DNA of 64,000 nt from contig CAIOLW010000059.1 of assembly GCA_903859215.1 (NCBI GenBank), positions 937 to 64,936 of the forward strand, read 5' to 3'. This DNA is from an uncultured bacterium. GTDB lineage: Bacteria; Krumholzibacteriota; Krumholzibacteriia; LZORAL124-64-63. Both the position numbers and the translations under genes were made by a program. The notes under the pieces are model-generated. The model had not been told where the DNA came from. It did not search any database and worked only from the letters and a program-made list of their open reading frames with translations. This document shows, piece after piece, positions 54,118 through 64,000 of this stretch (its first letter is position 1; every line of letters begins with the position of its first letter).

Positions 54118-55269
54118 TCAGCGCGTGGCGAGCGACTCGATCGCCTCGGCCATGCGCGCCCACGAATACTTCTTCTTCTCGGCCGTGACCGCCGCCGCGA
54201 ACTCGCCGGCCTTGCCTTCGTCGAAGAACCGCACGATGGCGCCTGCCAGCGCCGCCGGGTCGCCGGGCGGCACCAGGAACCCGGTGCGGCCGTCGAGCAC
54301 GACCTCCGGCAGGCCACCGACGTTCGTTGTCACGACAGGCCGGTCGTAGTTGTAGGCGATCTGCACGATGCCGCTTTGCGTGGCCGACACGTAGGGCAAC
54401 ACGACGAGGTCGGCCGCCACGAAGTAGCTCTCCACCAGTTCGTCCGGCACGAAGCCGTCGACCAGGCGGATGACGTCGGCCGCGCCCGAGTCGTCGATGC
54501 GGTCGAGGTACGGCTGCTTGTCGCCGTAGACGTCTCCCACGAGCAGCACGCGCACGTCGTCGCCGTAGCGTTCCTTCAGCAGCGGCGCCGCGTCAATCAG
54601 GTGCAGCACGCCCTTGTACGGCTTGATGAAGCCGAAGAACAACACCAGGCGCGCCGCCCGGGGCAGGTCGAGCCGCGCGCGGGCCGCCTCGCGCGTCGGC
54701 CGCGGCCGGCCGGGCGCGCCGAAATCGTACACGGGATGCGGCGCATCCACCACGCAGCGGTCGTCGACGTCCGGCAGCACGATCTTCAGGTCCTGCCGGA
54801 CCTGCGCGCTCTGCGCGATGAACCCGTGGCCCTGCCCGAGCGCCCGCCGCGTCAGGAACAGGCCGAACGGGTACTTCTCGTGCGGAATCACGTTGTCCAG
54901 CAGGTAGATCACGCGCACCTGGGTGCGCCGCCGCAGCAGCCAGGTCACGGCCCAGAAGCCCGGGGCGAAGAACGGGATCCAGTACTTGATGACGAGCGCC
55001 CGCGGCGCCGCGCGCCGGATGTCGCGGTACGTCCGCCACCAGCTGAGCGGCGACCACGGCACGAAGCGCGGCAGGTTCGGGTGGTCGAGCCAGGCGGCCG
55101 ACTCGCCCTCCTGGGCGCTGCCGGGGAACATGAACCCGGGGTACTGCCGCCGGAACGAGGCCCAGAACACCTCGTGGCCGCGCGTCCCCAGTTCCCGCGC
55201 CAGCAGGCCGTAGTAGGTGACGATGCCCCCGCGCAGCGGCGGCGCCGGGCCGAGGAAGGCCAGCTTCAC
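54118..55269 (-). CDS. Glycosyltransferase family 4 (GT-B, Glycos_transf_1)
   Basis: GTG 55269 (VKLAFLGPAPP) in a GTGA overlap with the upstream gene. NVGGLPEVVLDGRTGFLVPPGD. Confidence 0.85.
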   Translation of the reverse strand: MKLAFLGPAPPLRGGIVTYYGLLARELGTRGHEVFWASFRRQYPGFMFPGSAQEGESAAWLDHPNLPRFVPWSPLSWWRTYRDIRRAAPRALVIKYWIPFFAPGFWAVTWLLRRRTQVRVIYLLDNVIPHEKYPFGLFLTRRALGQGHGFIAQSAQVRQDLKIVLPDVDDRCVVDAPHPVYDFGAPGRPRPTREAARARLDLPRAARLVLFFGFIKPYKGVLHLIDAAPLLKERYGDDVRVLLVGDVYGDKQPYLDRIDDSGAADVIRLVDGFVPDELVESYFVAADLVVLPYVSATQSGIVQIAYNYDRPVVTTNVGGLPEVVLDGRTGFLVPPGDPAALAGAIVRFFDEGKAGEFAAAVTAEKKKYSWARMAEAIESLATR

Positions 55270-56369
55270 GGACGCCCCAGCAGGTCGACCGCGGCCGCCT
55301 GCACCGCCATCGCGTCGAGTGACTCGAGGCAGAACGAGGGCGCCGTGCAGCGGGGCTGGAAGTAGCACCCGCAGGGCTGCGGCGGCTGCACGATGGTGCC
55401 GCGGCCGTAAAGCTCGAACTCGTGCGGGTTGAAGATGTTGTTGATGAGCACGAGTCGCTTGCCGAGGCCCAGCGCGATGTGCATGGCCATCGTGACGGCC
55501 GAGACGACGACGTCGCAGCGGTCGACCAGGCCGATGAAGGTGCGCAGGTCGAAGTGGCCCGGGTAGCAGGCGCCCGAAGCCGCGGCCAGGCGGGCGTTCT
55601 TGTCGTTCTCGTCGGGGCCGCCCAGCAACACGACGCCCAGGCCGGCCGCGCGCAGGCCGCGCGCCAGTTCGAGCCAGTGCGACTCGGGCCACAGGCGACT
55701 GGTCCAGCGCCCGCCGCAACCGGTGTTCAGGCCGACCAGCGGCGCGCCGGTCGGCAGGTCGAACGCCGGCGCCGGCTCGGGCCGGTCCAGCACGTACGGC
55801 TCGCCGGCGAAACTGTAGCCGCAGATCGCGAAGATCTCCTGCAGGTAGCTCAGCCGGCAGTCACGGTTGACGTCGTCGAACAGGCCGGTCTGGAACTTCG
55901 CGCGAACGGCGTCGGCCATGTCGGCGCGCACACCTTCGACCAGCGGCCGGCACAGGCCGTGGTCGCCGAGCGTGAAGCCGACCTTGCGGATCGCCGTCAC
56001 CTCGCGCATCAGCGCACAGGCCTGGCGGTCCTTGTCCAGGTTGATCGCCAGGTCGAACCGCGTGTGGCGCAGCCACAGCAGCGTGCTGGTATCCAGCGCG
56101 CGCACGTCATCGACGGCGCGCGGCACCAGCGCCGGGAAGTCCGTCACCCAGGTGATCACTTGGTCGGGGTGCTCGCGGCGCAGCGGCGCCAGCAGCGGCG
56201 TCGTGCGGATGACATCGCCGGCGGCGCCGAGCTTCACCAGCAGGATGCGGCCGGTGCGCGCGCGGAACTCGGGGCAACCGTCGCAGTGCACGCCGGCGCG
56301 CTTGTGCGGCGCGCAGGGCACGTCGCCGCGGAAGTGGAAGCAGTCGGCGCGGTAGTCCACCCGTTCCAT
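55266..56369 (-). CDS. Glycosyltransferase family 9 (heptosyltransferase-like) with Cys-rich termini
   Basis: GT9 core (ILLVKLGAAGDVIRTTPLL, LNTGCGGRW, VSAVTMAMHIA). Four Cys in the first 32 aa and four in the last 35 aa. Confidence 0.8.
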   Translation of the reverse strand: MERVDYRADCFHFRGDVPCAPHKRAGVHCDGCPEFRARTGRILLVKLGAAGDVIRTTPLLAPLRREHPDQVITWVTDFPALVPRAVDDVRALDTSTLLWLRHTRFDLAINLDKDRQACALMREVTAIRKVGFTLGDHGLCRPLVEGVRADMADAVRAKFQTGLFDDVNRDCRLSYLQEIFAICGYSFAGEPYVLDRPEPAPAFDLPTGAPLVGLNTGCGGRWTSRLWPESHWLELARGLRAAGLGVVLLGGPDENDKNARLAAASGACYPGHFDLRTFIGLVDRCDVVVSAVTMAMHIALGLGKRLVLINNIFNPHEFELYGRGTIVQPPQPCGCYFQPRCTAPSFCLESLDAMAVQAAAVDLLGRP

Positions 56370-56381
56370 CCTTGCGGCCGG

Positions 56382-57482
56382 TCAGCGCCCGGCCGGCGTC
56401 TCGTGTGCGCGGATCTGCTTCATCGCTTCGCGGGCCTGCACGTTGAGCCCGCTGGGCAGGCCGTCCTGGATGGCCTTGCCGTAGGCGCTCTCGGCCTGTG
56501 TCCAGTTGTCCATCGCGACGTAGAGGCGTCCCATGTAGAAGTAGACGACGGCGGCGTCGCCCTTGTCGCGGAACAGCGCCAGGGCCTGCGTGAAGGCGTC
56601 GATCGCCTCGAAGTTCCGCTCCAGCACCGCCAGTGCGCGGCCCTTCATCGTCAGCAGCGCCGCGCGCGCGCTGGAGTCGAACTCCAGCCCGCTGTCGAGC
56701 ACCTTCGTGGTCGTCGCCAGCGCCTCGGCGGCCTGGCCGGCGCCCAGTTCCTTCTCGGCCTGGTCCATGCCCTGGTGCACCGGGGCCGGCAGCGGCGCCC
56801 GCAGGCGGCGCAGGTCCGCGCGCAGGTCCAGCGCCAGCGATCGCATGTCGCCGGGCAGTTCGCCGGCCAGCGCCTCCTCCACCAGGGCGGCGGCGCGATC
56901 GAGGTACTGCCCGTCGCGCATGAAGCCGGCCAGAAGGACCTTGGCCACGCCGTCCTCGGGATTCTCCAGGAGCGCCGAGCGGCAGTGGTCCTGGGCCTCG
57001 AGCCGGCGACCGGCGGCGAAGTCCTCGAGCGCGCGGTTGACGTGGTAGCCGTAGGCGGCGTGCACCTGGTTGCGCGGCGGCCCCTGGAGCGTGACGGTGA
57101 AGGCCGCCTCGTGGGCGCCGTTGGTCAGGACGACGATGACCTCTTCGCCCGTGCCCCACGGGACCAGCACCTCGTGGCGCGCCTCGTCGGTCTTGTAGTA
57201 GAGCAGCGACTCGCCCTTCATCCGCAGCACGTTCACGTCGCACTGGGACTGGCCGCCGTCGACGATCAACCGCCAGGCGCGGACCGGGATCTGGTCGAAC
57301 GACACGCGGAACTGGAACGACTCGCCCGGCTGCAGGAAGTAGCTGTCCGACTTGTAGGTCTCCCACGAGTTCCCGGCGGGCGCGGGAGCCGGCGCGGGCG
57401 GCATCGCCCAAGCGGCCGGCGCCAGCAGCGCGAGCGCCAGCAACCACGGCGCGATCCGGCGCGGAAGATGCAGCAGGTGCAT
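56382..57482 (-). CDS. Secreted protein: N-terminal beta-rich domain plus C-terminal TPR repeats
   Basis: ATG 57482. Signal MHLLHLPRRIAPWLLALALLAPAAWA. TPR-like helices in the C-terminal half (AIDAFTQALALF, AESAYGKAI). Confidence 0.7.
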   Translation of the reverse strand: MHLLHLPRRIAPWLLALALLAPAAWAMPPAPAPAPAGNSWETYKSDSYFLQPGESFQFRVSFDQIPVRAWRLIVDGGQSQCDVNVLRMKGESLLYYKTDEARHEVLVPWGTGEEVIVVLTNGAHEAAFTVTLQGPPRNQVHAAYGYHVNRALEDFAAGRRLEAQDHCRSALLENPEDGVAKVLLAGFMRDGQYLDRAAALVEEALAGELPGDMRSLALDLRADLRRLRAPLPAPVHQGMDQAEKELGAGQAAEALATTTKVLDSGLEFDSSARAALLTMKGRALAVLERNFEAIDAFTQALALFRDKGDAAVVYFYMGRLYVAMDNWTQAESAYGKAIQDGLPSGLNVQAREAMKQIRAHETPAGR

Positions 57483-57498
57483 GATCGTCACCCTCAGG

Positions 57499-57527
57499 TT
57501 GAACCGCGTGGCAAGTTGACCGATACT
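57499..57527 (+). promoter_or_regulatory. Candidate sigma70 promoter for the 57661 gene
   Basis: TTGAAC (57499-57504), 17 nt, GATACT (57522-57527). Confidence 0.35.
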
Positions 57528-57660
57528 GGGGCCGAATGTACCGGATGGGCGCAGGGAACTCAAGATGACAGGCGGTTTTCCGCCGCTGCCCGGCCCCCGG
57601 GACCGGGATGGAACCCACCGCCGGCCGCCCCCCGCGTCGCCGGCAGGAAAGGAAACCGGG

Positions 57661-58758
57661 ATGACCTTCGACACCCTCCCCGTGACCGGCCCCCGCCGGG
57701 CGCGCCGCCGCCCCGCGGCCGGCCTGCCCGCCGCGCTGCTGCCCGGGCTGCTGTGCCTGCTGCTGGCCGCCTGGGGCGCGACGGACGCCGCCGCCCAGGC
57801 CACCCAGGGCACGCCCTCGGACCTGCGCCTGGTCGTCCACGACGCCACGACCGGCCTGGCGGGCACCCCCGACCGCGTCGTCATCGACTATGTCCTGGGG
57901 ACGCCCAACACCATCCTGGACATGAAGCCGGCGGCCGGCGAGTTCACGGCCCCCGGGGTCCCGGTCAAGGACATCGGGACGTACATCGTGACGGTGTGGT
58001 ACCAGGGCGTGCCCTACTGGTGGCAGAAGCGCGGCTCGGACCTGACCGGCGGCCCGGTCACGCTGGACGTCTTCAGCGTGACCACGGCGCGCGGAAATCT
58101 CGCCATCAAGGGCCTGAACTTCGTGGTCCAGCACCGCGAGACCACGGCCGAGATCGAGATGCTGGCCGAGGTCACGAACCTGGCCACGCCGCAGGCCACC
58201 GTCTTCGGCCCCGGCGCCACCCTGGAACTGCCCCTGCCCGCCGGATCCACCGAAGTGAAGGCCAGTTACCTGCGCGGGGCCGAGCCGACGCCGGTGGACG
58301 TCTCGGTGTCCGGCACGCGGGCCGTGCTGAAGGTGCCGCTGACGCCCGGTTCGACGCGCGTGCGCGTGACGGCGGTCGCACCGTGGCGGGACACGCTGGA
58401 AATCCCGATCGGCAGCGACCTGGCGATCGAGGCGTGGAGCCTGCTGACGACCCCGGTGTCGGTCGGCGTGGAAGCCGAGGGCCTGCAGGCGCCGGACGAG
58501 AAGACGGTGCCGAACTATGCGCGCCGCCCCGGACCGGCGATCGCCGCCGGCGGCAGCCTGGTCGTGCGGCTCAGCACCGGCACCGCCGCCGGCAAGCCGG
58601 AGCCGCTGTTCAGCGCGCCCGCGGCCACCGGGGAGCCCGCAGCGGCCGCCCCGGCGGCGAAGGACACCAGGGCCAACCGTTTCCCGCTGCCCTTGGCCGC
58701 GGCGCTCGTGGTGGTTATCATCGGCGCCCTGGTCCTGGTGCGTCGCGGCCGCTCGTAG
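57661..58758 (+). CDS. Hypothetical exported protein with C-terminal TM anchor
   Basis: ATG 57661 with AGGAAAGGAA SD. Arg-rich N-region plus signal (LLPGLLCLLLAAWGATDAAAQA). Beta-rich body, Ala/Pro linker, then TM LPLAAALVVVIIGALVLV followed by RRGRS. Confidence 0.65.
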   Translation: MTFDTLPVTGPRRARRRPAAGLPAALLPGLLCLLLAAWGATDAAAQATQGTPSDLRLVVHDATTGLAGTPDRVVIDYVLGTPNTILDMKPAAGEFTAPGVPVKDIGTYIVTVWYQGVPYWWQKRGSDLTGGPVTLDVFSVTTARGNLAIKGLNFVVQHRETTAEIEMLAEVTNLATPQATVFGPGATLELPLPAGSTEVKASYLRGAEPTPVDVSVSGTRAVLKVPLTPGSTRVRVTAVAPWRDTLEIPIGSDLAIEAWSLLTTPVSVGVEAEGLQAPDEKTVPNYARRPGPAIAAGGSLVVRLSTGTAAGKPEPLFSAPAATGEPAAAAPAAKDTRANRFPLPLAAALVVVIIGALVLVRRGRS

Positions 58759-58814
58759 GCGCCGCGTCCGTCGATCCCCCAGTGCCCGGCCCGCGGGCCG
58801 GTTAAGGAGAGTCC

Positions 58815-59675
58815 ATGTCCGGCATCATCGAACTGACGCTCGGCCACAGCCCCGACCCGGACGATGCCTTCATGTTCTACGGGCTGGCCCGCGACAAGCT
58901 CGAGACGGGGCCGTACCGCTTCAAGCACGTGCTGCAGGACATCCAGACGCTGAACGAGCGCGCCACGCGCGGCGAACTGGACATCACCGCCATCAGCATC
59001 CACGCCTACGCCTACGTGCTGGACAAGTACGCGCTGCTGCCGGCGGGCGCGAGCATGGGCTTCGGCTACGGGCCGATGGTGGTCGCGAAGCAGGCCATCG
59101 CGCCGGCCGACCTGGCGGGCATGACCATCGCCATCCCGGGGAAAATGACCTCGGCGTGGCTGGAACTGCAGCTGGCTGTCGACCAACTGGGCGGCGGCAA
59201 GGTCAATCCGGTGGTCGTGCCCTTCGACGAGATCATCGAGCGGGTCGTCTCGGGCGAGTTCCCCGCCGGCCTGATCATCCACGAAGGCCAGCTCACCTAC
59301 CAGGAAGCCGGCCTGGCCGAGTGCCTGAACCTGGGCAAGTGGTGGTGGGAAACGACCGGCCGCACGGACTGGCCGCTGCCTTTGGGCGGCAACGCCATCC
59401 ACAAGAAGCACGGCGCGGCGATGAAGGACATCAGCGACATCCTGACCGCGTCGATCCGCTACAGCCTGGACAACCGGGCCGCGGCGCTGGACTACGCGCT
59501 GGGCTGGGCGCGCGACATGGGTGTCGAGCTGGCGGACGAGTTCGTCGGGATGTACGTCAACGACTGGACGCTGGACTACGGCGACCGCGGCCGGGCCGCG
59601 ATCACCGAGCTGCTGCGGCGCGGCCACGCCGCGGGGCTCATCCCGAAGGTGGACCAGCTGGAGTTCGTGGGCTGA
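58815..59675 (+). CDS. MqnA/MqnD-family (PF02621, futalosine-pathway menaquinone biosynthesis) protein
   Basis: LGHSPDPDDAFMFYGL N-terminus. Periplasmic-binding-protein-like fold. SD TAAGGAG. Confidence 0.8.
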   Translation: MSGIIELTLGHSPDPDDAFMFYGLARDKLETGPYRFKHVLQDIQTLNERATRGELDITAISIHAYAYVLDKYALLPAGASMGFGYGPMVVAKQAIAPADLAGMTIAIPGKMTSAWLELQLAVDQLGGGKVNPVVVPFDEIIERVVSGEFPAGLIIHEGQLTYQEAGLAECLNLGKWWWETTGRTDWPLPLGGNAIHKKHGAAMKDISDILTASIRYSLDNRAAALDYALGWARDMGVELADEFVGMYVNDWTLDYGDRGRAAITELLRRGHAAGLIPKVDQLEFVG

Positions 59676-59765: not shown

Positions 59766-60290
59766 TCAGGCGCTCGCGGCGTCGGCAAAGCCGCCGGCCG
59801 CCTCGGATCGCTGCCGGTACTGGCGGGCGATGAAGCCCTGGACGATGCCCATGGCCAGGTACCGGGCGCGCAGGCGCTCGGGCAGGTGCCGGAAGTCCCG
59901 GACGACGCCGCGGCACTCGTGGTGCCCGCAGCGGCACTCGAGCGTCCAGATGCCGTCATCCATCGTGGTCGAGTAGTCGAAGGTCACCTGCTCGCCGGGC
60001 TGGATGTCCGCAATCGCGACCAGGAGCCGGTTCTCGACCAGGCCGGCGTTGGGCGCGCACGAGTGGTTGACGAGCACCGCCGGACTGTCGGGCAGGATGT
60101 ACGTCCGCGCGCCCGTCTGCAGCAGCATGGCGGCCCGCTCGGTGTGGTGGATGGGGTCCTCGCGCTCGAAGCGCGGCCCCCGGTAGCGCAGGATGGATTC
60201 ACCCTTGCGGATGGCCCGGGCGGCAAACACGCCCCGCCCGAACTCGCAGTCCGCGATGTAGATGCTGTCGGCCACCCGGTGGACCTCCAT
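59766..60290 (-). CDS. SET-domain protein-lysine methyltransferase
   Basis: GRGVFAARAIRKGESI, VNHSCAPN, FDYS, post-SET CRCGHHEC. ATG 60290; an alternative GTG 60356 would add 22 aa. Confidence 0.8.
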   Translation of the reverse strand: MEVHRVADSIYIADCEFGRGVFAARAIRKGESILRYRGPRFEREDPIHHTERAAMLLQTGARTYILPDSPAVLVNHSCAPNAGLVENRLLVAIADIQPGEQVTFDYSTTMDDGIWTLECRCGHHECRGVVRDFRHLPERLRARYLAMGIVQGFIARQYRQRSEAAGGFADAASA

Positions 60291-60357
60291 CGCCGCCTGG
60301 GACCCCGCCCGAACCTCCGGAACGCCCTTTCCCCGGGGCGCCGCCGCCTCCTCCACC

Positions 60358-60386
60358 CGGATTTGGCGTCAGGTACGGATTTGGCG
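60358..60386. repeat. 11-bp direct repeat in the SET leader/promoter-proximal region
   Basis: CGGATTTGGCG at 60358-60368 and again at 60376-60386 (18-bp phasing). Confidence 0.7.
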
Positions 60387-60390
60387 CGAG

Positions 60391-60420
60391 AACATAGACC
60401 AAGGCCCCCGGCAGGTGCAA
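60391..60420 (-). promoter_or_regulatory. Candidate sigma70 promoter of the SET gene
   Basis: Minus strand reads TTGCAC (60420-60415), 18 nt, TATGTT (60396-60391). Confidence 0.35.
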
Positions 60421-60463
60421 CACGGACCTTTTCCGGGGAGGTAAAAAATCCGCCGATACCCTC

Positions 60464-60493
60464 TTGACACCGCCTTTCCACTCCCTCTACCTT
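60464..60493 (+). promoter_or_regulatory. Candidate sigma70 promoter of the acidic-tail protein gene
   Basis: TTGACA (60464-60469), 18 nt, TACCTT (60488-60493). Confidence 0.4.
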
Positions 60494-60590
60494 TTGCCCG
60501 CTCCTCATCCGGGCGGGCGTTTCCCGTGACGCCGGCTTTACCCGGTTGTGTTTCCCGGTCCGACCAGCCCGGCCTTAGGAGGTCCGAGCG

Positions 60591-60890
60591 ATGTTGGTGA
60601 CGCAGAGCTTGCGCGGCGATGGCAAGGGCGAATCGAAGCCCCGCAACAAGCGTAAGTACGACGAGGGTTCCCGCGAGAAGCACCGCCGTGACGACCTCGG
60701 CGGTCGCCCGGGCCAGAAACTGCCCAAGCGCGCCCACGGTGGCGATGACGACGACCCGGACGACGCCGAACTCGAGGACGACGACGACTTCGACGACGAC
60801 GACGACTTTGATATGGATGAGGACGACTTCGACATCGACGAAGACGATGACTTCGAAGCCGGAGACGATTGGGACAAGGACGACGAGTAG
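60591..60890 (+). CDS. Small protein with basic N-terminal half and poly-Asp/Glu C-terminal tail (99 aa), unknown function
   Basis: AGGAGG 8 nt upstream of ATG 60591. GC-rich third positions match the genome bias. Product is MLVTQSLRGDGKGESKPRNKRKYDEGSREKHRR...GGDDDDPDDAELEDDDDFDDDDDFDMDEDDFDIDEDDDFEAGDDWDKDDE. Confidence 0.7.
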   Translation: MLVTQSLRGDGKGESKPRNKRKYDEGSREKHRRDDLGGRPGQKLPKRAHGGDDDDPDDAELEDDDDFDDDDDFDMDEDDFDIDEDDDFEAGDDWDKDDE

Positions 60891-60952
60891 GACAAGGCGA
60901 CGAGTAGCCCCCTCCACAGATCCGCGTTTCCACGCCGAAAGTTGGTTTGCCC

Positions 60953-61852
60953 ATGACCCGGGATCTTCACGAAGATCCCGGGGCTTTCGGCGGTTTGCCG
61001 GAAGCCCCGGACTACGCATCGGCGCGCTTTGCCGTGCTGCCCATCCCCTACGACGGGACGTCGACCTGGCAGAAGGGCGCCGACAAGGGCCCCGAGGCCC
61101 TGCTCCACGCCTCGGCGAACATGGAGCTCTACGACATCGAGACCGACTCGGAGCCCTGGCGCGCCGGGATCGTGACGATGGCCCCCCAGCGCGGGTTCGA
61201 CTCGCCCGAGGCCATGGTCGCCTCGGTACGGGCCGAGGCTGACGCCCTGCTGGCGGACGGCCGCACCATCGTCGGGCTCGGCGGCGAGCACTCGGTGTCG
61301 ATCGGCCTGATCCAGGCCCACGCGGCGAAGTACCCGGGGCTGACGGTGCTGCAGTTCGACGCCCACGGCGACAGCCGGGACGAGTACGAGCACTCCAAGT
61401 GCAACCACGCCTGCGTCATGGCGCGGGCGGCCGAATGCGCCGATTATGTGGCCGTCGGCATCCGGAGCATGGACGTCGAGGAGAAGGCCCGGCTGGTGCC
61501 CGGCCGGACCATCTTCGCGCACGAGATCGAGGACATCGACACGACGGCCCGTCGCATCCTCGACCGCATCACCGGGCCCGTCTACATCACTATCGACCTG
61601 GATGTGCTCGACCCGTCGGAAATGCCGTCGACGGGCACGCCGGAGCCGGGCGGGCTGACCTACCGTCAACTCAAGGGGCTGCTCAGGGCCGTGTGCCGTG
61701 AGCGGCAGGTGGTCGGGTTCGACGTCGTGGAACTGATGCCGCGCGTGGAGAACCGGGCCCCCGATTTCCTGGCCGCGAGGCTGACCTACCAGCTGATGGC
61801 CTTCGTCCTGTCCTTCGACCATTCGGCCCTCGGCAAAGGAGAGTCCCGGTGA
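60953..61852 (+). CDS. speB: Agmatinase (arginase/ureohydrolase family)
   Basis: Mn-site motifs GGEHSVS, FDAHGDSRD, ITIDLDVLDPSEMPSTGTPEPGGLT. ATG 60953 (the track start TTG 60947 is 2 codons earlier). Confidence 0.9.
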   Translation: MTRDLHEDPGAFGGLPEAPDYASARFAVLPIPYDGTSTWQKGADKGPEALLHASANMELYDIETDSEPWRAGIVTMAPQRGFDSPEAMVASVRAEADALLADGRTIVGLGGEHSVSIGLIQAHAAKYPGLTVLQFDAHGDSRDEYEHSKCNHACVMARAAECADYVAVGIRSMDVEEKARLVPGRTIFAHEIEDIDTTARRILDRITGPVYITIDLDVLDPSEMPSTGTPEPGGLTYRQLKGLLRAVCRERQVVGFDVVELMPRVENRAPDFLAARLTYQLMAFVLSFDHSALGKGESR

Positions 61853-62886
61853 ACAAGAAAGAGATCCTGTCCGACGTCCTCAAGCACGTCGACGTCAAGA
61901 GCTTCGACGCCCGGCCGCTGATCGCGGCCTACGGCGACATGGCCTTCCAGGCCCGCAACCTGTCGCGCGCGACCGGCATCCTCAACCAGATGCTGGCCGA
62001 CCGCGAGTGCAGCGTCATCCTGACGCTGGCCGGCTCTCTGTGCAGCGCCGGCCTGAAGGACGCGCTGGCCCTGATGGTCGAGAACAACATGGTCGACGCC
62101 ATCGTCTCGACCGGCGCCAACATCGTCGACCAGGACTTCTTCGAGGGCATGGGCTTCCGCCACTACAAGGGCGCCCCCCACGCCGTCGACGACCAGAAGC
62201 TGCGCGAGCTGGGCATCGACCGCATCTACGACACGTACATCGACGAGGACGAACTGCGTGAATGCGACATGGCGATCGCCGAGATCGCCGGCACGCTTGC
62301 GCCCCGCGCCTACTCGTCGCGCGAGTTCATCCACGCCATGGGCGCCTGGCTGGACAAGCGCGGCCTGGGCTGCGAGCACTCGATCGTGCACGCGGCGTAC
62401 AAGAAGGACGTGCCCATCTTCTGCCCCGCGTTCAGCGACTGCTCGGCGGGCTTCGGCCTGGTGCACCACCAGTGGCACAACGAGAAGTACCTGACCATCG
62501 ACTCGGTGGCGGACTTCCGCGAGCTGACGCGCATCAAGATCGAAGCGGGCGAGACGGGCATCTTCATGATCGGCGGCGGCGTGCCGAAGAACTTCACCCA
62601 GGACGTGGTGGTGGCCACCGACATCCTGGGCGAGGAGAAGCCCATGCACAAGTACGCGCTGCAGATCACCGTGGCCGACGAGCGCGACGGCGCCCTGTCG
62701 GGTTCGACGCTGCAGGAGGCCTGCTCGTGGGGCAAGGTCGACACCGCCTTCGAGCAGATGGTGTGGGCCGAGGCCACGCTGGTGCTGCCGCTGATGGTCA
62801 GCGACGCCTGGCACCGCGGCCTGTGGAAGGAACGCACGGCACGGCAGTTCAACAAGCTGCTGGCCAATTCGGGCGCCACGGCCTAG
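61849..62886 (+). CDS. Deoxyhypusine synthase-like protein
   Basis: GTG 61849 in a GTGA overlap with the speB stop; SD AAGGAG. STGANIVDQD, MIGGGVPKN, and the catalytic-lysine context CSWGK are conserved. Confidence 0.9.
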   Translation: MNKKEILSDVLKHVDVKSFDARPLIAAYGDMAFQARNLSRATGILNQMLADRECSVILTLAGSLCSAGLKDALALMVENNMVDAIVSTGANIVDQDFFEGMGFRHYKGAPHAVDDQKLRELGIDRIYDTYIDEDELRECDMAIAEIAGTLAPRAYSSREFIHAMGAWLDKRGLGCEHSIVHAAYKKDVPIFCPAFSDCSAGFGLVHHQWHNEKYLTIDSVADFRELTRIKIEAGETGIFMIGGGVPKNFTQDVVVATDILGEEKPMHKYALQITVADERDGALSGSTLQEACSWGKVDTAFEQMVWAEATLVLPLMVSDAWHRGLWKERTARQFNKLLANSGATA

Positions 62887-63111: not shown

Positions 63112-64000
63112 ATGCATCCGCGCACCCTAGCCGGCCTCGGCATGGCCATGCTGGCGGCCGGCATCATGTCCGCCTGGTACCTGACGCGGGACTCGCGGGC
63201 CGCCAAGCCCGCCGACGCGCACAGCGTCGCGGAGGCCCCGCCCCTGGTGCCCGGACTGCAGGTCGAACCGGCCGGCCCCCAGGACGTCGCCGTCTTCCTC
63301 GAGCAGTACAACACCCAGTACCGCCGCCTGTGGGCGGCCGCCGAAGGCGCCAAGTTCACGGCCGAGTCCGACATCACCGACGCCAACTCGACCGCGCGCG
63401 TCGAGGCCGGGCGCGCGCTGGGCGACTACGTGGGCAGCACCGAGGTTATCGACAAAGTGCGCCAGATGCGCGGCCGCCCCGACGTGACGCCCCTGCAGGA
63501 GCGGCAACTGAACGCCGCCTGGCGCCTGGCCGCCCACTACCCCGCGCCCGTCGGCGAGCGCGTGCGCTACCTGATCTCGACCGAGGCCCAGGCCACCGAC
63601 AGCCTGTACGCCACCACCTGGATGCTGAAGGTCCCGGGCCGCCCCGAGCGCGCCGTGACGCCCAACGGGCTGGACGAGATGGTCGCCGGCAGCCGGGACC
63701 TGAAGCTGCGGCAGGCCGCCTGGGAGTGCAGCAAGGACGTGGGCCCGCGCCTGCGCGACCTGCTGGTCGACCTGCAGGGCCTGCGCAACGGCGTCGCGCG
63801 CGAGATGGGCTTCTCGTCGTACTTCGGGCTCGAGACCGACAACTACGGCATGAGCGCGGACGAGATGATGACGTTGATGGACGACCTGGTCGTGGGCATC
63901 ATGCCGCTGTACCAGCAACTGCACTGCTGGACGCGCTACGAGCTGGCCCGCCGCTACAACCAGCCGGTGCCCGACCGCATCCCCGCGCACTGGCTGGACA
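63112..64000 (+). CDS. M2-family (angiotensin-converting-enzyme-like) peptidyl-dipeptidase, 5' part (runs off window)
   Basis: Not in the ORF track because there is no stop before the edge. ATG 63112 with AAGGA SD. Translation by eye gives MHPRTLAGLGMAMLAAGIMSAWYL..FLEQYNTQYRRLWAAAEGAKFTAESDITDANS..LYQQLHCWTRYELARRYN..IPAHWL. The HExxH motif would lie beyond the window. Confidence 0.75.
   Translation, partial: MHPRTLAGLGMAMLAAGIMSAWYLTRDSRAAKPADAHSVAEAPPLVPGLQVEPAGPQDVAVFLEQYNTQYRRLWAAAEGAKFTAESDITDANSTARVEAGRALGDYVGSTEVIDKVRQMRGRPDVTPLQERQLNAAWRLAAHYPAPVGERVRYLISTEAQATDSLYATTWMLKVPGRPERAVTPNGLDEMVAGSRDLKLRQAAWECSKDVGPRLRDLLVDLQGLRNGVAREMGFSSYFGLETDNYGMSADEMMTLMDDLVVGIMPLYQQLHCWTRYELARRYNQPVPDRIPAHWLD

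What the first reader, a model, noticed from the sequence alone, without database searches (positions are those of the whole stretch)
60591..60890. Strongly signalled 99-aa protein with basic head and extreme poly-Asp/Glu tail at the head of the agmatinase/DHS-like operon
This small ORF has some of the best expression signals in the window. It has a consensus -35 TTGACA, AGGAGG at 8 nt spacing, and an ATG start. Its N-terminal ~50 aa are Lys/Arg-rich (KPRNKRKYDEGSREKHRR, KLPKRAHGG). The last ~45 aa are almost entirely Asp/Glu with interspersed Phe (DDDDFDDDDDFDMDEDDFDIDEDDDF). It lies 62 nt upstream of speB and the DHS-like gene with no terminator between, and it is divergent from a SET-domain lysine methyltransferase. 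I recognise no family. Three functions are possible: a polyamine- or cation-binding buffer protein, a DNA/histone-mimic or chaperone-like protein, or a lysine-bearing substrate for the neighbouring DHS-like or SET enzymes. All three are speculative. A basic/acidic bipartite protein sitting next to a polyamine-transferring enzyme and a lysine methyltransferase is an unusual, uncharacterised arrangement.
Basis: partly seen in the sequence, partly recalled or inferred. Interest (0 to 1): 0.65.

Follow-up and report, generated by a model that had tools for sequence, protein, structure and literature searches.

The report
Acidic-tailed disordered protein in homospermidine operon
The 99-aa ORF is a real, conserved, fully disordered protein with a basic head and a poly-Asp/Glu tail, found only inside the gene cluster that makes the polyamine homospermidine from agmatine in Krumholzibacteria-like bacteria; it is an undescribed accessory of that pathway, probably one that binds or senses the polycationic products.

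Summary
ORF 60591-60890 (+) has an ATG start, AGGAGG 8 nt upstream, a basic head (+8) and an acidic tail (-34). It is under purifying selection (dN/dS 0.07-0.36) and AlphaFold predicts it disordered (pLDDT 58).

The "DHS-like" neighbour is SpeY, the agmatine-coupling enzyme. It scores above cutoff on NCBIfam NF002699 and below cutoff on every true-DHS model. The "agmatinase" is most likely its partner ureohydrolase. Together they form the published agmatine -> G44G -> homospermidine pathway, so a lysine substrate for the DHS-like enzyme is unlikely.

The main new result is comparative. Similarly built small ORFs (77-107 aa, down to about 30% identity) lie directly upstream of speB/speY in at least 7 different genomic contexts. 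They usually sit between the arginine decarboxylase SpeDA and speB, and in three loci they overlap the next gene by 4 nt. All such loci form one clade in a SpeY tree. None of 80 loci outside it has the ORF or a SET gene. An orthologous SET gene lies next to the cluster in 4 of the 7 contexts.

No known family matches. My best guess, at moderate-to-low confidence, is a polyamine-binding buffer or sensor that works by charge. Rivals are a SET substrate or nucleic-acid binder, a cation-sensing leader ORF, a SpeY acceptor protein and a Mn2+ carrier.

The parts
60458..60501 (+). Conserved promoter-like block. It holds TTGACA (60464-60469), an 18-nt spacer and TACCTT (60488-60493, inside TACCTTTTG).
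   Evidence: Much of the block, including TTGACA and CTCTACCTTTTGCC, is invariant in 8 orthologous loci while the flanking intergenic sequence varies. The consensus scan finds no sigma-70 site because the -10 matches only 3 of 6 positions. Promoter function is inferred.
60577..60582 (+). Shine-Dalgarno AGGAGG, 8 nt before the ATG
   Evidence: Read directly from the sequence. An SD-like purine-rich G/A motif sits at a similar distance upstream of the homologous ORF in all 11 loci compared.
60591..60890 (+). CDS of the 99-aa disordered protein, here called X, stop codon included
   Evidence: dN/dS 0.07-0.36; pLDDT 57.8, pTM 0.11, essentially no secondary structure.
60591..60731 (+). Basic head, aa 1-47 (15 K/R, 7 D/E). 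It carries two conserved motifs: E-x-K-P-x-x-[KR]-R, with Lys16 invariant, and a second patch P40-G-Q-K-L-P-K-R.
   Evidence: Alignments A1, A3 and A4. K16, R21 and P40 are invariant across subfamilies that share only about 30% identity.
60636..60638 (+). Codon of Lys16. This is the only lysine invariant across all aligned subfamilies.
   Evidence: A lysine in a comparable acidic-x-K-P/R context is also seen by eye in the unaligned L102 and L103 proteins.
60732..60887 (+). Poly-Asp/Glu tail, aa 48-99 (35 D/E). F, M, I or W recurs every 6-8 residues. A conserved Trp lies near the C-terminus in the motif W-D-K-D-D.
   Evidence: for composition. for 18- and 21-nt tandem periodicity. W94 is nearly invariant.
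60864..60907 (+). An 18-nt tandem duplication spanning the stop codon: GACAAGGACGACGAGTAG followed by GACAAGGCGACGAGTAG
   Evidence: It may account for the longer X-to-speB spacer here, 62 nt against 43-45 nt in close relatives.
60953..61852 (+). Agmatinase-family ureohydrolase (speB-like). It is probably the G44G ureohydrolase of the SpeY pathway.
   Evidence: PF00491 at 223.9 bits. TIGR01230 at 220.4 bits against a 174.3 cutoff. The substrate is inferred from PMC13625781. No strong SD precedes it.
61849..62886 (+). SpeY, also named 1,9-bis(guanidino)-5-aza-nonane (G44G/caldomycin) synthase. It is a DHS homolog whose GTG start overlaps the speB stop (GTGA).
   Evidence: NF002699 equivalog at 560.6 bits against a 500 cutoff. 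The true-DHS models all score below their cutoffs. PF01916.
59766..60290 (-). SET-domain methyltransferase, divergent from X. The likely start is the ATG at 60290; the ORF can extend to a GTG at 60356.
   Evidence: PF00856 at 47 bits. It is 55-62% identical to the SET genes beside the cluster in L015, L016 and L018. Nearest solved relatives are BurB and the KMT2 enzymes.

Best explanation
X is a translated, intrinsically disordered accessory protein of the agmatine -> G44G -> homospermidine gene cluster (SpeDA, SpeB-like, SpeY). It was gained once, together with a SET gene, at the base of a Krumholzibacteria-like lineage.

Proposed mechanism (inferred, not shown):
- The tail is a polyanion of about 35 Asp/Glu with aromatic residues every 6-8 positions. 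It binds the pathway's polycations, homospermidine (3+) and/or the bis-guanidino intermediate G44G, through salt bridges and cation-pi contacts.
- When the tail is free it folds back on the Lys/Arg-rich head. When polyamine loads the tail, the head is released to dock on a partner. That partner could be one of the acidic pathway enzymes or a nucleic acid.
- The protein would then act as a buffer and/or feedback sensor for homospermidine.

Shown here: a real coding gene, disorder, charge segregation, strict operon membership, a single origin, and strong SD-like ribosome-binding signals in every lineage. Inferred: polyamine binding, the head-tail switch, and the identity of the head's partner.
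For: A real, translated gene:
- dN/dS is 0.07-0.36 in both halves.
- An SD-like purine-rich motif precedes the ORF in all 11 loci compared.
- 13 close orthologs and 8 further, mostly distant family members were found.

A pathway accessory:
- The ORF lies directly upstream of speB/speY in at least 7 different flank contexts. These are the window clade, L015, L016, L018, L102, L103, and the group L017/L099/L101.
- It overlaps the next gene by 4 nt in L016, L018 and L102, and is 3 nt from SpeY in L103.
- All X+ loci are monophyletic in the SpeY NJ tree. None of the 80 other SpeY loci has X.

The pathway makes polycations: SpeY scores above cutoff on NF002699, and the pathway is published (PMC10981699, PMC13625781).

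Disorder and electrostatics:
- pLDDT 57.8 and pTM 0.11.
- Head +8, tail -34.
- Tail composition and the spacing of hydrophobic residues are conserved while the sequence drifts.

Precedent: spermine binds the acidic disordered C-terminal region of alpha-synuclein and weakens its long-range contact with the N-terminal region (PMC13014203). From general knowledge, polyamine-binding sites such as PotD/PotF use Asp/Glu together with aromatic residues.
Against: - There is no direct evidence of polyamine binding.
- A true buffer for millimolar polyamine would need very high copy number, and expression level is unknown.
- Three short motifs are conserved: the one around Lys16, the P40 patch, and the Trp near the C-terminus. 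They point to specific protein partners rather than plain ion binding.
- The pathway enzymes in the X+ clade are acidic (SpeY pI about 5.1, SpeB about 4.85). Only the head could dock on them by charge.
- The whole X+ set stems from one evolutionary gain, so the co-occurrence statistics amount to a single event.
Confidence: 0.38

Rival explanations
1. X is the protein substrate of the co-acquired SET methyltransferase, and/or a histone-tail-like nucleic-acid-binding protein. Its acidic tail would auto-inhibit the basic head, as in HMGB1, the Hfq C-terminus, or RNA polymerase delta. The link to the operon would then be regulatory.
For: - SET and X appear at the same node of the SpeY tree, and neither is present in the 80 loci outside it.
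- An orthologous SET (55-62% identical) stays next to the cluster in two different arrangements: divergent upstream in the window clade and L015, and co-directional downstream in L016, L018 and L102.
- Lys16 is invariant within a disordered basic head.
- The SET has the NHSC motif and a CxCx4C post-SET motif (read from the sequence), and it matches KMT2/NSD histone methyltransferases.
Against: - X persists without an adjacent SET in L099, L101 and L103 (none within 5-8 kb), in L001/L013, and in L017, whose contig ends 323 nt after SpeY.
- The best solved match of the SET is BurB, which methylates free methionine (PMC12542666). The SET could act on a small amine.
- This reading does not explain why X is always embedded in the polyamine operon.
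Confidence: 0.17
2. What matters is the act of translating X. The poly-acidic nascent chain triggers intrinsic ribosome destabilisation (IRD). Completion of X would then depend on Mg2+ or polyamine levels, and would gate the translationally coupled speB/speY, in the manner of the MgtL leader.
For: - Poly-acidic runs cause cation-sensitive ribosome drop-off. A 20-Asp insert left more than 50% of the product as peptidyl-tRNA (PMC11162784). MgtL uses this effect to sense Mg2+ (as cited in PMC12421838).
- speB lacks a strong SD of its own, or overlaps the X stop.
- From general knowledge, polyamine genes are often controlled by upstream ORFs, for example SpeFL and the AdoMetDC uORF.
Against: - In 5 of 7 contexts X is internal to the operon, after SpeDA, not a 5' leader.
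- The acidic run starts only after about 40-50 residues. By then a filled exit tunnel counteracts IRD (Chadani 2021, as cited in PMC12421838).
- The conserved head motifs and the Trp near the C-terminus are not needed for IRD.
- There is no significant leader RNA structure (z = -0.47) and no Rfam match.
- The coupling logic would give positive rather than homeostatic feedback.
Confidence: 0.08
3. X is a protein acceptor for SpeY. The enzyme would transfer a 4-guanidinobutyl group from agmatine to Lys16, and the ureohydrolase would trim it to a deoxyhypusine-like residue. This would be a bacterial analogue of hypusination.
For: - SpeY is a DHS homolog (PF01916).
- X is always next to SpeY, even where speB is not adjacent (L103).
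- One lysine is invariant across the family.
- SpeY in the X+ clade has a few clade-specific substitutions: D30, N91, C192 and A221 in place of K/R.
Against: - SpeY scores above the equivalog cutoff for G44G synthase and below every DHS cutoff.
- SpeY homologs from diverse phyla all make G44G, and their partner ureohydrolases act on G44G (PMC13625781).
- The X-less sister clade has the same enzymes.
- The sequence around Lys16 bears no resemblance to the eIF5A hypusine loop (comparison from memory, not run).
Confidence: 0.05
4. X is a low-affinity, high-capacity carrier of divalent cations (Mn2+) that loads or buffers metal for the binuclear-Mn ureohydrolase encoded next to it.
For: - X is immediately upstream of the arginase-family gene in 6 of 7 contexts.
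- Carboxylate-rich tails bind hard divalent cations.
- A MntP manganese-efflux gene follows SpeY in L015.
Against: - In L103, X sits between SpeDA and SpeY with no arginase-family gene among the genes called within 5 kb.
- From general knowledge, no Mn chaperone is known for arginase-family enzymes.
- This reading does not explain the basic head or the aromatic residues.
Confidence: 0.04

Closest known systems
SpeDA-SpeB-SpeY (CdmS) homospermidine gene clusters (Kobayashi 2024, PMC10981699; Li et al. 2026, PMC13625781)
   Same: The downstream genes here are a SpeY equivalog and an agmatinase-family ureohydrolase. In relatives, the SpeD-derived arginine decarboxylase sits in the same cluster.
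   Different: A term search of the 2026 paper's text for SET, methyltransferase, acidic and hypothetical found no mention of a small acidic ORF or a SET gene in its clusters. The X-less sister clade has only about 120-140 nt between SpeDA and speB. X and SET are lineage-specific additions.
Acidic disordered C-terminal tail of alpha-synuclein, which binds polyamines
   Same: A disordered protein with a basic or amphipathic N-terminal part and an Asp/Glu-rich C-terminal tail. Spermine binds the tail and weakens head-tail long-range contacts (PMC13014203).
   Different: There is no homology. X is bacterial and far more acidic (net -26 in 99 aa). It has no NAC-like hydrophobic core, and it is encoded inside a polyamine-synthesis operon.
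Polyelectrolyte proteins and tails that mimic nucleic acid or auto-inhibit a basic region: RNA polymerase delta (RpoE) C-terminal region, the HMGB1 acidic tail, prothymosin alpha, the SSB acidic tip
   Same: Extreme charge segregation, disorder, and aromatic residues within or at the end of an acidic tract. These comparisons rest on general knowledge.
   Different: X has no folded domain. There is no HARE-HTH, HMG or OB match. The only PDB profile hit is a compositional match to the N-terminus of SigA at E = 0.066.
IRD-type and arrest-type regulatory ORFs (MgtL, SpeFL)
   Same: A small ORF with a strong SD lies upstream of cation- or polyamine-related genes. The poly-acidic sequence is of the kind that destabilises ribosomes (PMC11162784).
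   Different: X is 77-107 aa and usually internal to the operon. Its acidic run is in the C-terminal half. No attenuator structure was found.
Ornithine decarboxylase antizyme, a polyamine-responsive protein regulator of a polyamine enzyme
   Same: Only the proposed logic is shared: a small protein reports polyamine level back to the pathway.
   Different: There is no sequence or structural similarity. No frameshift site was looked for. A regulatory role for X is entirely inferred.

Membership tests
Any curated protein family for X (Pfam-A, NCBIfam, PDB sequences) | A significant profile match | tested here: not met
   Pfam gives no hit for X at E <= 1. Across all 21 family members there are only two single-member hits, at E = 0.05-0.09. 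NCBIfam gives none. The best PDB profile hit has E = 0.066 and is compositional. phmmer against 1.84 billion representative proteins finds only X's own cluster and one apparently chimeric protein.
SpeY / 1,9-bis(guanidino)-5-aza-nonane synthase (for the 'DHS-like' neighbour) | A score above the curated equivalog cutoff of NF002699 | tested here: met
   560.6 bits against a cutoff of 500.
SpeY / 1,9-bis(guanidino)-5-aza-nonane synthase (for the 'DHS-like' neighbour) | Clustered with an agmatinase-family ureohydrolase and an arginine decarboxylase | tested here: inconclusive
   The ureohydrolase is adjacent. No SpeDA homolog is present in the 64-kb window; other decarboxylase folds were not searched. 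SpeDA is present in the cluster in L015, L016, L018, L102 and L103.
SpeY / 1,9-bis(guanidino)-5-aza-nonane synthase (for the 'DHS-like' neighbour) | Catalyses agmatine homocoupling to G44G | not testable with these tools
   Inferred from the equivalog match and from PMC10981699 and PMC13625781.
True deoxyhypusine synthase, which modifies a lysine of eIF5A/aIF5A | A score above the cutoff of a DHS equivalog model | tested here: not met
   All five DHS models score below their cutoffs: NF002006 306.8 bits against 434, TIGR00321 240 against 304, NF002630 236.6 against 364, NF003052 171 against 380, NF002294 165.5 against 350.
MgtL-like IRD leader peptide | A short ORF in the 5' leader, with the destabilising acidic or Pro-rich motif near the N-terminus and a downstream attenuator or Rho-dependent structure | tested here: not met
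   X is 77-107 aa. The acidic run begins after residue 40-50. X is internal to the operon in 5 of 7 contexts. The 5' UTR fold is not significant, and Rfam finds nothing.
SpeFL-type ligand-sensing arrest peptide | An ORF of about 34 codons upstream of speF, with a conserved arrest motif | tested here: not met
   Length and context differ, and there is no family match. Ribosome arrest itself was not testable.
RNA polymerase delta subunit (RpoE) | An N-terminal HARE-HTH domain followed by an acidic disordered tail | tested here: not met
   No Pfam domain in any of the 21 members. No helices are predicted.
SET-domain methyltransferase (for the divergent neighbour) | A PF00856 match above the gathering score, plus the NHSC and post-SET Cys motifs | tested here: met
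   47 bits against 22.4. NHSC and CRCGHHEC are read from the translation. The substrate, protein lysine or small molecule, was not testable. The nearest solved relative is BurB, a methionine S-methyltransferase (PMC12542666).

The most novel reading that the evidence does not exclude
X is a protein acceptor for the DHS homolog SpeY. A 4-guanidinobutyl group from agmatine would be transferred to the invariant Lys16, and the adjacent ureohydrolase would trim it. The result would be a bacterial hypusine-like modification on a disordered protein, possibly read or tuned by the co-acquired SET methyltransferase. A less radical version, at about 0.2 probability, is that X is the first bacterial antizyme-like polyamine sensor working by an electrostatic head-tail switch.
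Probability: 0.05. Interest if true: 0.9.

Novelty: new variant of a known kind. Interest (0 to 1): 0.58.

Why it matters
The SpeY route to homospermidine was worked out only in 2024-2026. It is described as needing enzymes only: an arginine decarboxylase, SpeY and a ureohydrolase or iminohydrolase. This locus shows that one uncultured lineage has added two conserved genes to that operon. One is an extremely acidic disordered protein and the other is a SET methyltransferase.

If X binds or senses homospermidine or G44G, it would be a new kind of bacterial polyamine-homeostasis factor, acting as a protein buffer or as an antizyme-like sensor. It would also be a natural case of a small-molecule polycation controlling a polyelectrolyte protein.

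If the SET acts on X or on the polyamine, that would extend what bacterial SET enzymes are known to do. Both ideas can be tested directly by heterologous expression of a 3-5 gene cassette.

Tried and rejected
- Family assignment. Pfam, NCBIfam and PDB sequence and profile searches on X and on all 21 family members found nothing. phmmer against 1.84 billion representatives returned only X's own cluster and P0014, which looks like an assembly chimera: an X-like N-terminus fused to unrelated sequence.
- Close-relative synteny as evidence. The 13 close homologs all share the whole +/-8 kb neighbourhood, with SpeY 91-98% identical. Their synteny therefore says nothing about functional linkage. I moved to more distant SpeY loci instead.
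- Regulatory RNA. Rfam at E <= 1 gives only two chance miRNA hits. The 5' UTR fold has z = -0.47.
- Canonical sigma-70 promoter. The scan finds none. TTGACA is real and invariant, but the -10 is non-canonical.
- Complex prediction. I built a paired, linker-fused alignment of X, SpeB and SET for AlphaFold. No partner could be predicted.
- Enzyme charge as a clue to docking. SpeY and SpeB in the X+ clade are somewhat more acidic than in the sister clade. This is compatible with head docking but not diagnostic.
- 'Lysine substrate of the DHS-like enzyme'. Downgraded once the enzyme was identified as SpeY.
- Gene-calling artefact or degenerate fragment of a larger gene. Rejected on four grounds: dN/dS, conserved start and SD, indels in multiples of three, and no longer homolog.
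Full report
**1. The observation**

The ORF at 60591-60890 (+) is as described: 99 aa with an ATG start. AGGAGG lies at 60577-60582 and is followed by an 8-nt spacer. The first 47 residues carry 15 K/R and 7 D/E. The last 52 carry 35 D/E, one Lys and five aromatic residues. Net charge is -26.

The tail has 18- and 21-nt tandem periodicity, giving units such as DDDDFD and DEDDFDI. The stop is 62 nt before the ATG of the arginase-family gene at 60953. The simple scan finds no terminator-like site in between.

TTGACA is at 60464-60469. There is no canonical -10, and the consensus scan finds no promoter. The hexamer does sit in a 44-nt block (60458-60501), much of which, TTGACA included, is invariant in eight orthologous loci while the surrounding intergenic DNA varies. 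The best -10 candidate is TACCTT, 18 nt downstream, inside TACCTTTTG. Promoter function is inferred.

The feature is not a chance product of high G+C:
- A D/E-density test was run on 874 kb and 4007 ORFs. It flags 25 ORFs. Twenty-four are this gene at the same relative position, and it is the only hit in the window.
- dN/dS against seven orthologs is 0.07-0.32 for the head and 0.08-0.36 for the tail.

**2. What the neighbours are**

The "DHS-like" gene (61849-62886) scores 560.6 bits on NCBIfam NF002699, 1,9-bis(guanidino)-5-aza-nonane synthase, against a cutoff of 500. It falls below the cutoff of every true deoxyhypusine-synthase model. This enzyme is SpeY, also called CdmS. It couples two agmatines to G44G (caldomycin), and an agmatinase-family ureohydrolase then converts G44G to homospermidine (PMC10981699; PMC13625781).

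The gene at 60953-61852 passes the agmatinase equivalog (TIGR01230, 220.4 bits against 174.3). By analogy with the SpeY-associated homologs studied in PMC13625781, it is probably the G44G ureohydrolase.

The divergent gene at 59766-60290 (-) is a SET-domain methyltransferase. Its nearest solved relative is BurB, a SET enzyme that methylates free methionine. The KMT2 and NSD histone methyltransferases follow closely (PMC12542666).

**3. Homologs and context**

Direct searches find 13 close homologs of 98-107 aa at 73-89% identity. The head is nearly invariant among them, and the C-terminus ends in DDWDKDD. phmmer over 1.84 billion representative proteins finds nothing further, apart from one apparent chimera. 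A scan of one genome per species finds five species, one of which is labelled Candidatus Krumholzibacteriia.

These close relatives share the whole +/-8 kb neighbourhood, and their SpeY is 91-98% identical. Their synteny is therefore uninformative about function.

I next looked at SpeY homologs that are 71-80% identical and sit in otherwise unrelated neighbourhoods. Each has a small ORF with no Pfam match and a similar build at the same position:

| Locus | Gene order | X length |
|---|---|---|
| L015 | SET (divergent), SpeDA, X, SpeB, SpeY, MntP | 100 aa |
| L016 | SpeDA, X, SpeB, SpeY, SET | 83-98 aa |
| L018 | SpeDA, X, SpeB, SpeY, SET | 86 aa |
| L102 | SpeDA, X, SpeB, SpeY, SET | 90 aa |
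| L017, L099, L101 | GluDH, X, SpeB, SpeY | 82-90 aa |
| L103 | SpeDA, X, SpeY (no arginase-family gene among genes called within 5 kb) | 77 aa |

A profile search with these sequences recovered further members, annotated as Krumholzibacteriia.

Across subfamilies that share only about 30% identity, the following survive:
- the motif acidic-x-K-P-x-x-[KR]-R, with Lys16 invariant;
- a second Pro/Lys/Arg patch around P40;
- a tail of about 60-80% D/E in its densest 30-residue stretch, with regularly spaced F, Y, W, L, I or V;
- usually a Trp or other aromatic residue a few residues before the stop.

An SD-like purine-rich motif precedes X in every lineage compared. The following gene has a weak SD, or overlaps the X stop by 4 nt (L016, L018, L102), or starts 3 nt after it (L103).

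**4. Distribution**

A metagenome scan with a SpeY alignment returned 80 loci with SpeY 60-70% identical to the window. None has an acidic-tail ORF at the position of X. One unrelated 267-aa ORF, about 4 kb from SpeY in L040, just reaches the looser 50% threshold. None of the 80 has a SET gene. About a dozen have SpeDA-speB-speY, with only about 120-140 nt between SpeDA and speB.

In an NJ tree of SpeY, all X+ loci form one clade. That clade is sister to the X-less SpeDA-speB-speY group. SET is present in several of its branches, including the L102/L018 pair that branches first in the midpoint-rooted tree.

The simplest history is a single gain of X and SET into an ancestral SpeDA-SpeB-SpeY operon. 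The ancestral order was probably SpeDA-X-SpeB-SpeY-SET. Later rearrangements followed. The window's clade is a derived state: SpeDA is no longer in the locus, SET is flipped upstream, and X has its own conserved promoter-like block.

Because there was one gain, the X-SET and X-SpeY associations each count as one evolutionary event. Their persistence through rearrangement still argues for selection on the linkage.

**5. Structure**

AlphaFold with the 21-sequence family alignment gives mean pLDDT 57.8 and pTM 0.11, with only a couple of 3-residue helical turns. X is an intrinsically disordered, strongly charge-segregated polyampholyte.

**6. How it most likely works**

These points are shown: X is a real, strongly translated, disordered protein, and it has been a fixed member of the homospermidine operon since a single origin.

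The rest is inference. The operon's products are polycations: G44G has two guanidinium groups and one ammonium, and homospermidine has three ammonium groups. The tail of X combines carboxylates with aromatic residues, the chemistry that polyamine-binding sites use (general knowledge). Spermine is documented to bind the acidic disordered C-terminal region of alpha-synuclein and to weaken its contact with the N-terminal region (PMC13014203).

I therefore favour the following model, at about 0.38. The tail of X binds homospermidine and/or G44G. The basic head competes for the tail and is released when the tail is loaded. The freed head then contacts a partner, either an acidic pathway enzyme (SpeY pI about 5.1, SpeB about 4.85) or a nucleic acid. 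This would give buffering or feedback sensing.

**7. Rivals**

(a) SET substrate and/or auto-inhibited nucleic-acid binder, about 0.17. Support comes from the co-gain with SET and the invariant Lys16. Against it, X occurs without an adjacent SET, and the BurB similarity suggests the SET may act on a small molecule.

(b) Cation-sensing regulatory ORF acting through intrinsic ribosome destabilisation, about 0.08. Poly-acidic runs do cause cation-sensitive drop-off (PMC11162784; PMC12421838), and speB appears translationally coupled to X. Several points count against it:
- X is usually internal to the operon.
- The acidic run is in the C-terminal half.
- The head motifs are conserved.
- There is no leader RNA structure.
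- The feedback would have the wrong sign.

(c) Acceptor protein for SpeY, a hypusine-like modification on Lys16, about 0.05. This would be attractive. It is contradicted by the equivalog assignment and by the finding that diverse SpeY homologs make G44G (PMC13625781).

(d) Mn2+ carrier for the ureohydrolase, about 0.04. L103 lacks an adjacent arginase-family gene, which weakens this.

(e) Artefact or gene fragment, under 0.02. This is rejected.

**8. Comparison with what is known, and novelty**

The enzymatic core is a known system, the SpeY homospermidine pathway. X matches no curated family. A term search of the 2026 survey of SpeY gene clusters found no mention of a small acidic ORF or a SET gene.

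X resembles acidic-tailed disordered polyelectrolytes such as the alpha-synuclein C-terminus, the RNAP delta tail, the HMGB1 tail and prothymosin alpha. The resemblance is in physical chemistry only. It fails the membership tests for MgtL-type and SpeFL-type leaders and for RpoE.

I classify the finding as a new variant of a known kind: a SpeY operon carrying two extra conserved accessory genes. X itself is an uncharacterised, lineage-restricted protein family.

**9. Verdict**

Operon membership and recurrence are now established. The DHS-substrate idea is largely set aside. The polyamine-binding idea remains the leading hypothesis and is untested. Interest is 0.58.

Noticed in passing
window 60864-60907: An 18-nt tandem duplication spans the stop codon of X: GACAAGGACGACGAGTAG is followed by GACAAGGCGACGAGTAG, which is one base shorter. 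It may account for the 62-nt spacer to speB, against 43-45 nt in close relatives.
   Followed up: partly
window 60359-60397 (intergenic, upstream of SET on the minus strand): GGATTTGGCG occurs twice as a direct repeat, 18 nt apart (60359-60368 and 60377-60386), and is followed by CGAGAACATAG. The second copy and the following block are conserved in 7 of the 8 orthologous loci aligned, including L001, and absent from L013. This could be an operator or the SET promoter region.
   Followed up: partly
window 59766-60290 (-): The closest solved relative of the SET protein is BurB (PDB 9l4t), a SET enzyme that S-methylates free methionine, rather than a histone methyltransferase. The SET in this polyamine cluster might methylate a small amine.
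   Followed up: partly
L001 7183-7683 and L013, at the position SET occupies in the window: In two members of the window's own clade, tblastn finds no SET homolog between MqnA and X. L001 has a 166-aa ORF with no Pfam match called on the + strand there. SET has been lost or replaced while X is retained.
   Followed up: partly
L103 4352-6083: In a 6.45-Mb contig the order is SpeDA, X (77 aa), SpeY, with no arginase-family gene among the genes called within 5 kb. The ureohydrolase or iminohydrolase step must be encoded elsewhere in that genome.
   Followed up: no
L015 6111-6671: A MntP manganese-efflux gene lies directly after SpeY in one X+ locus. The adjacent ureohydrolase is expected to be Mn-dependent.
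   Followed up: no
window 63112-64000 (+): An ORF runs off the end of the window at the position where a 626-629-aa Peptidase_M2 (angiotensin-converting-enzyme-like) gene sits in syntenic loci L001, L004 and L007. It begins with a signal-peptide-like N-terminus.
   Followed up: no
P0014 (83 aa, from the representative library): This protein has an X-like N-terminus (MLVLQSVRDEGKGDGKGESKPRNKRRYDE) fused to unrelated non-acidic sequence. It is probably an assembly or gene-call chimera.
   Followed up: no
window 55266-59675: The upstream neighbours are conserved in synteny across the close clade but unrelated to the SpeY cluster in more distant relatives. They are a GT9 heptosyltransferase, a TPR protein, a 397-aa hypothetical protein and a MqnA-like protein (VitK2_biosynth).
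   Followed up: no
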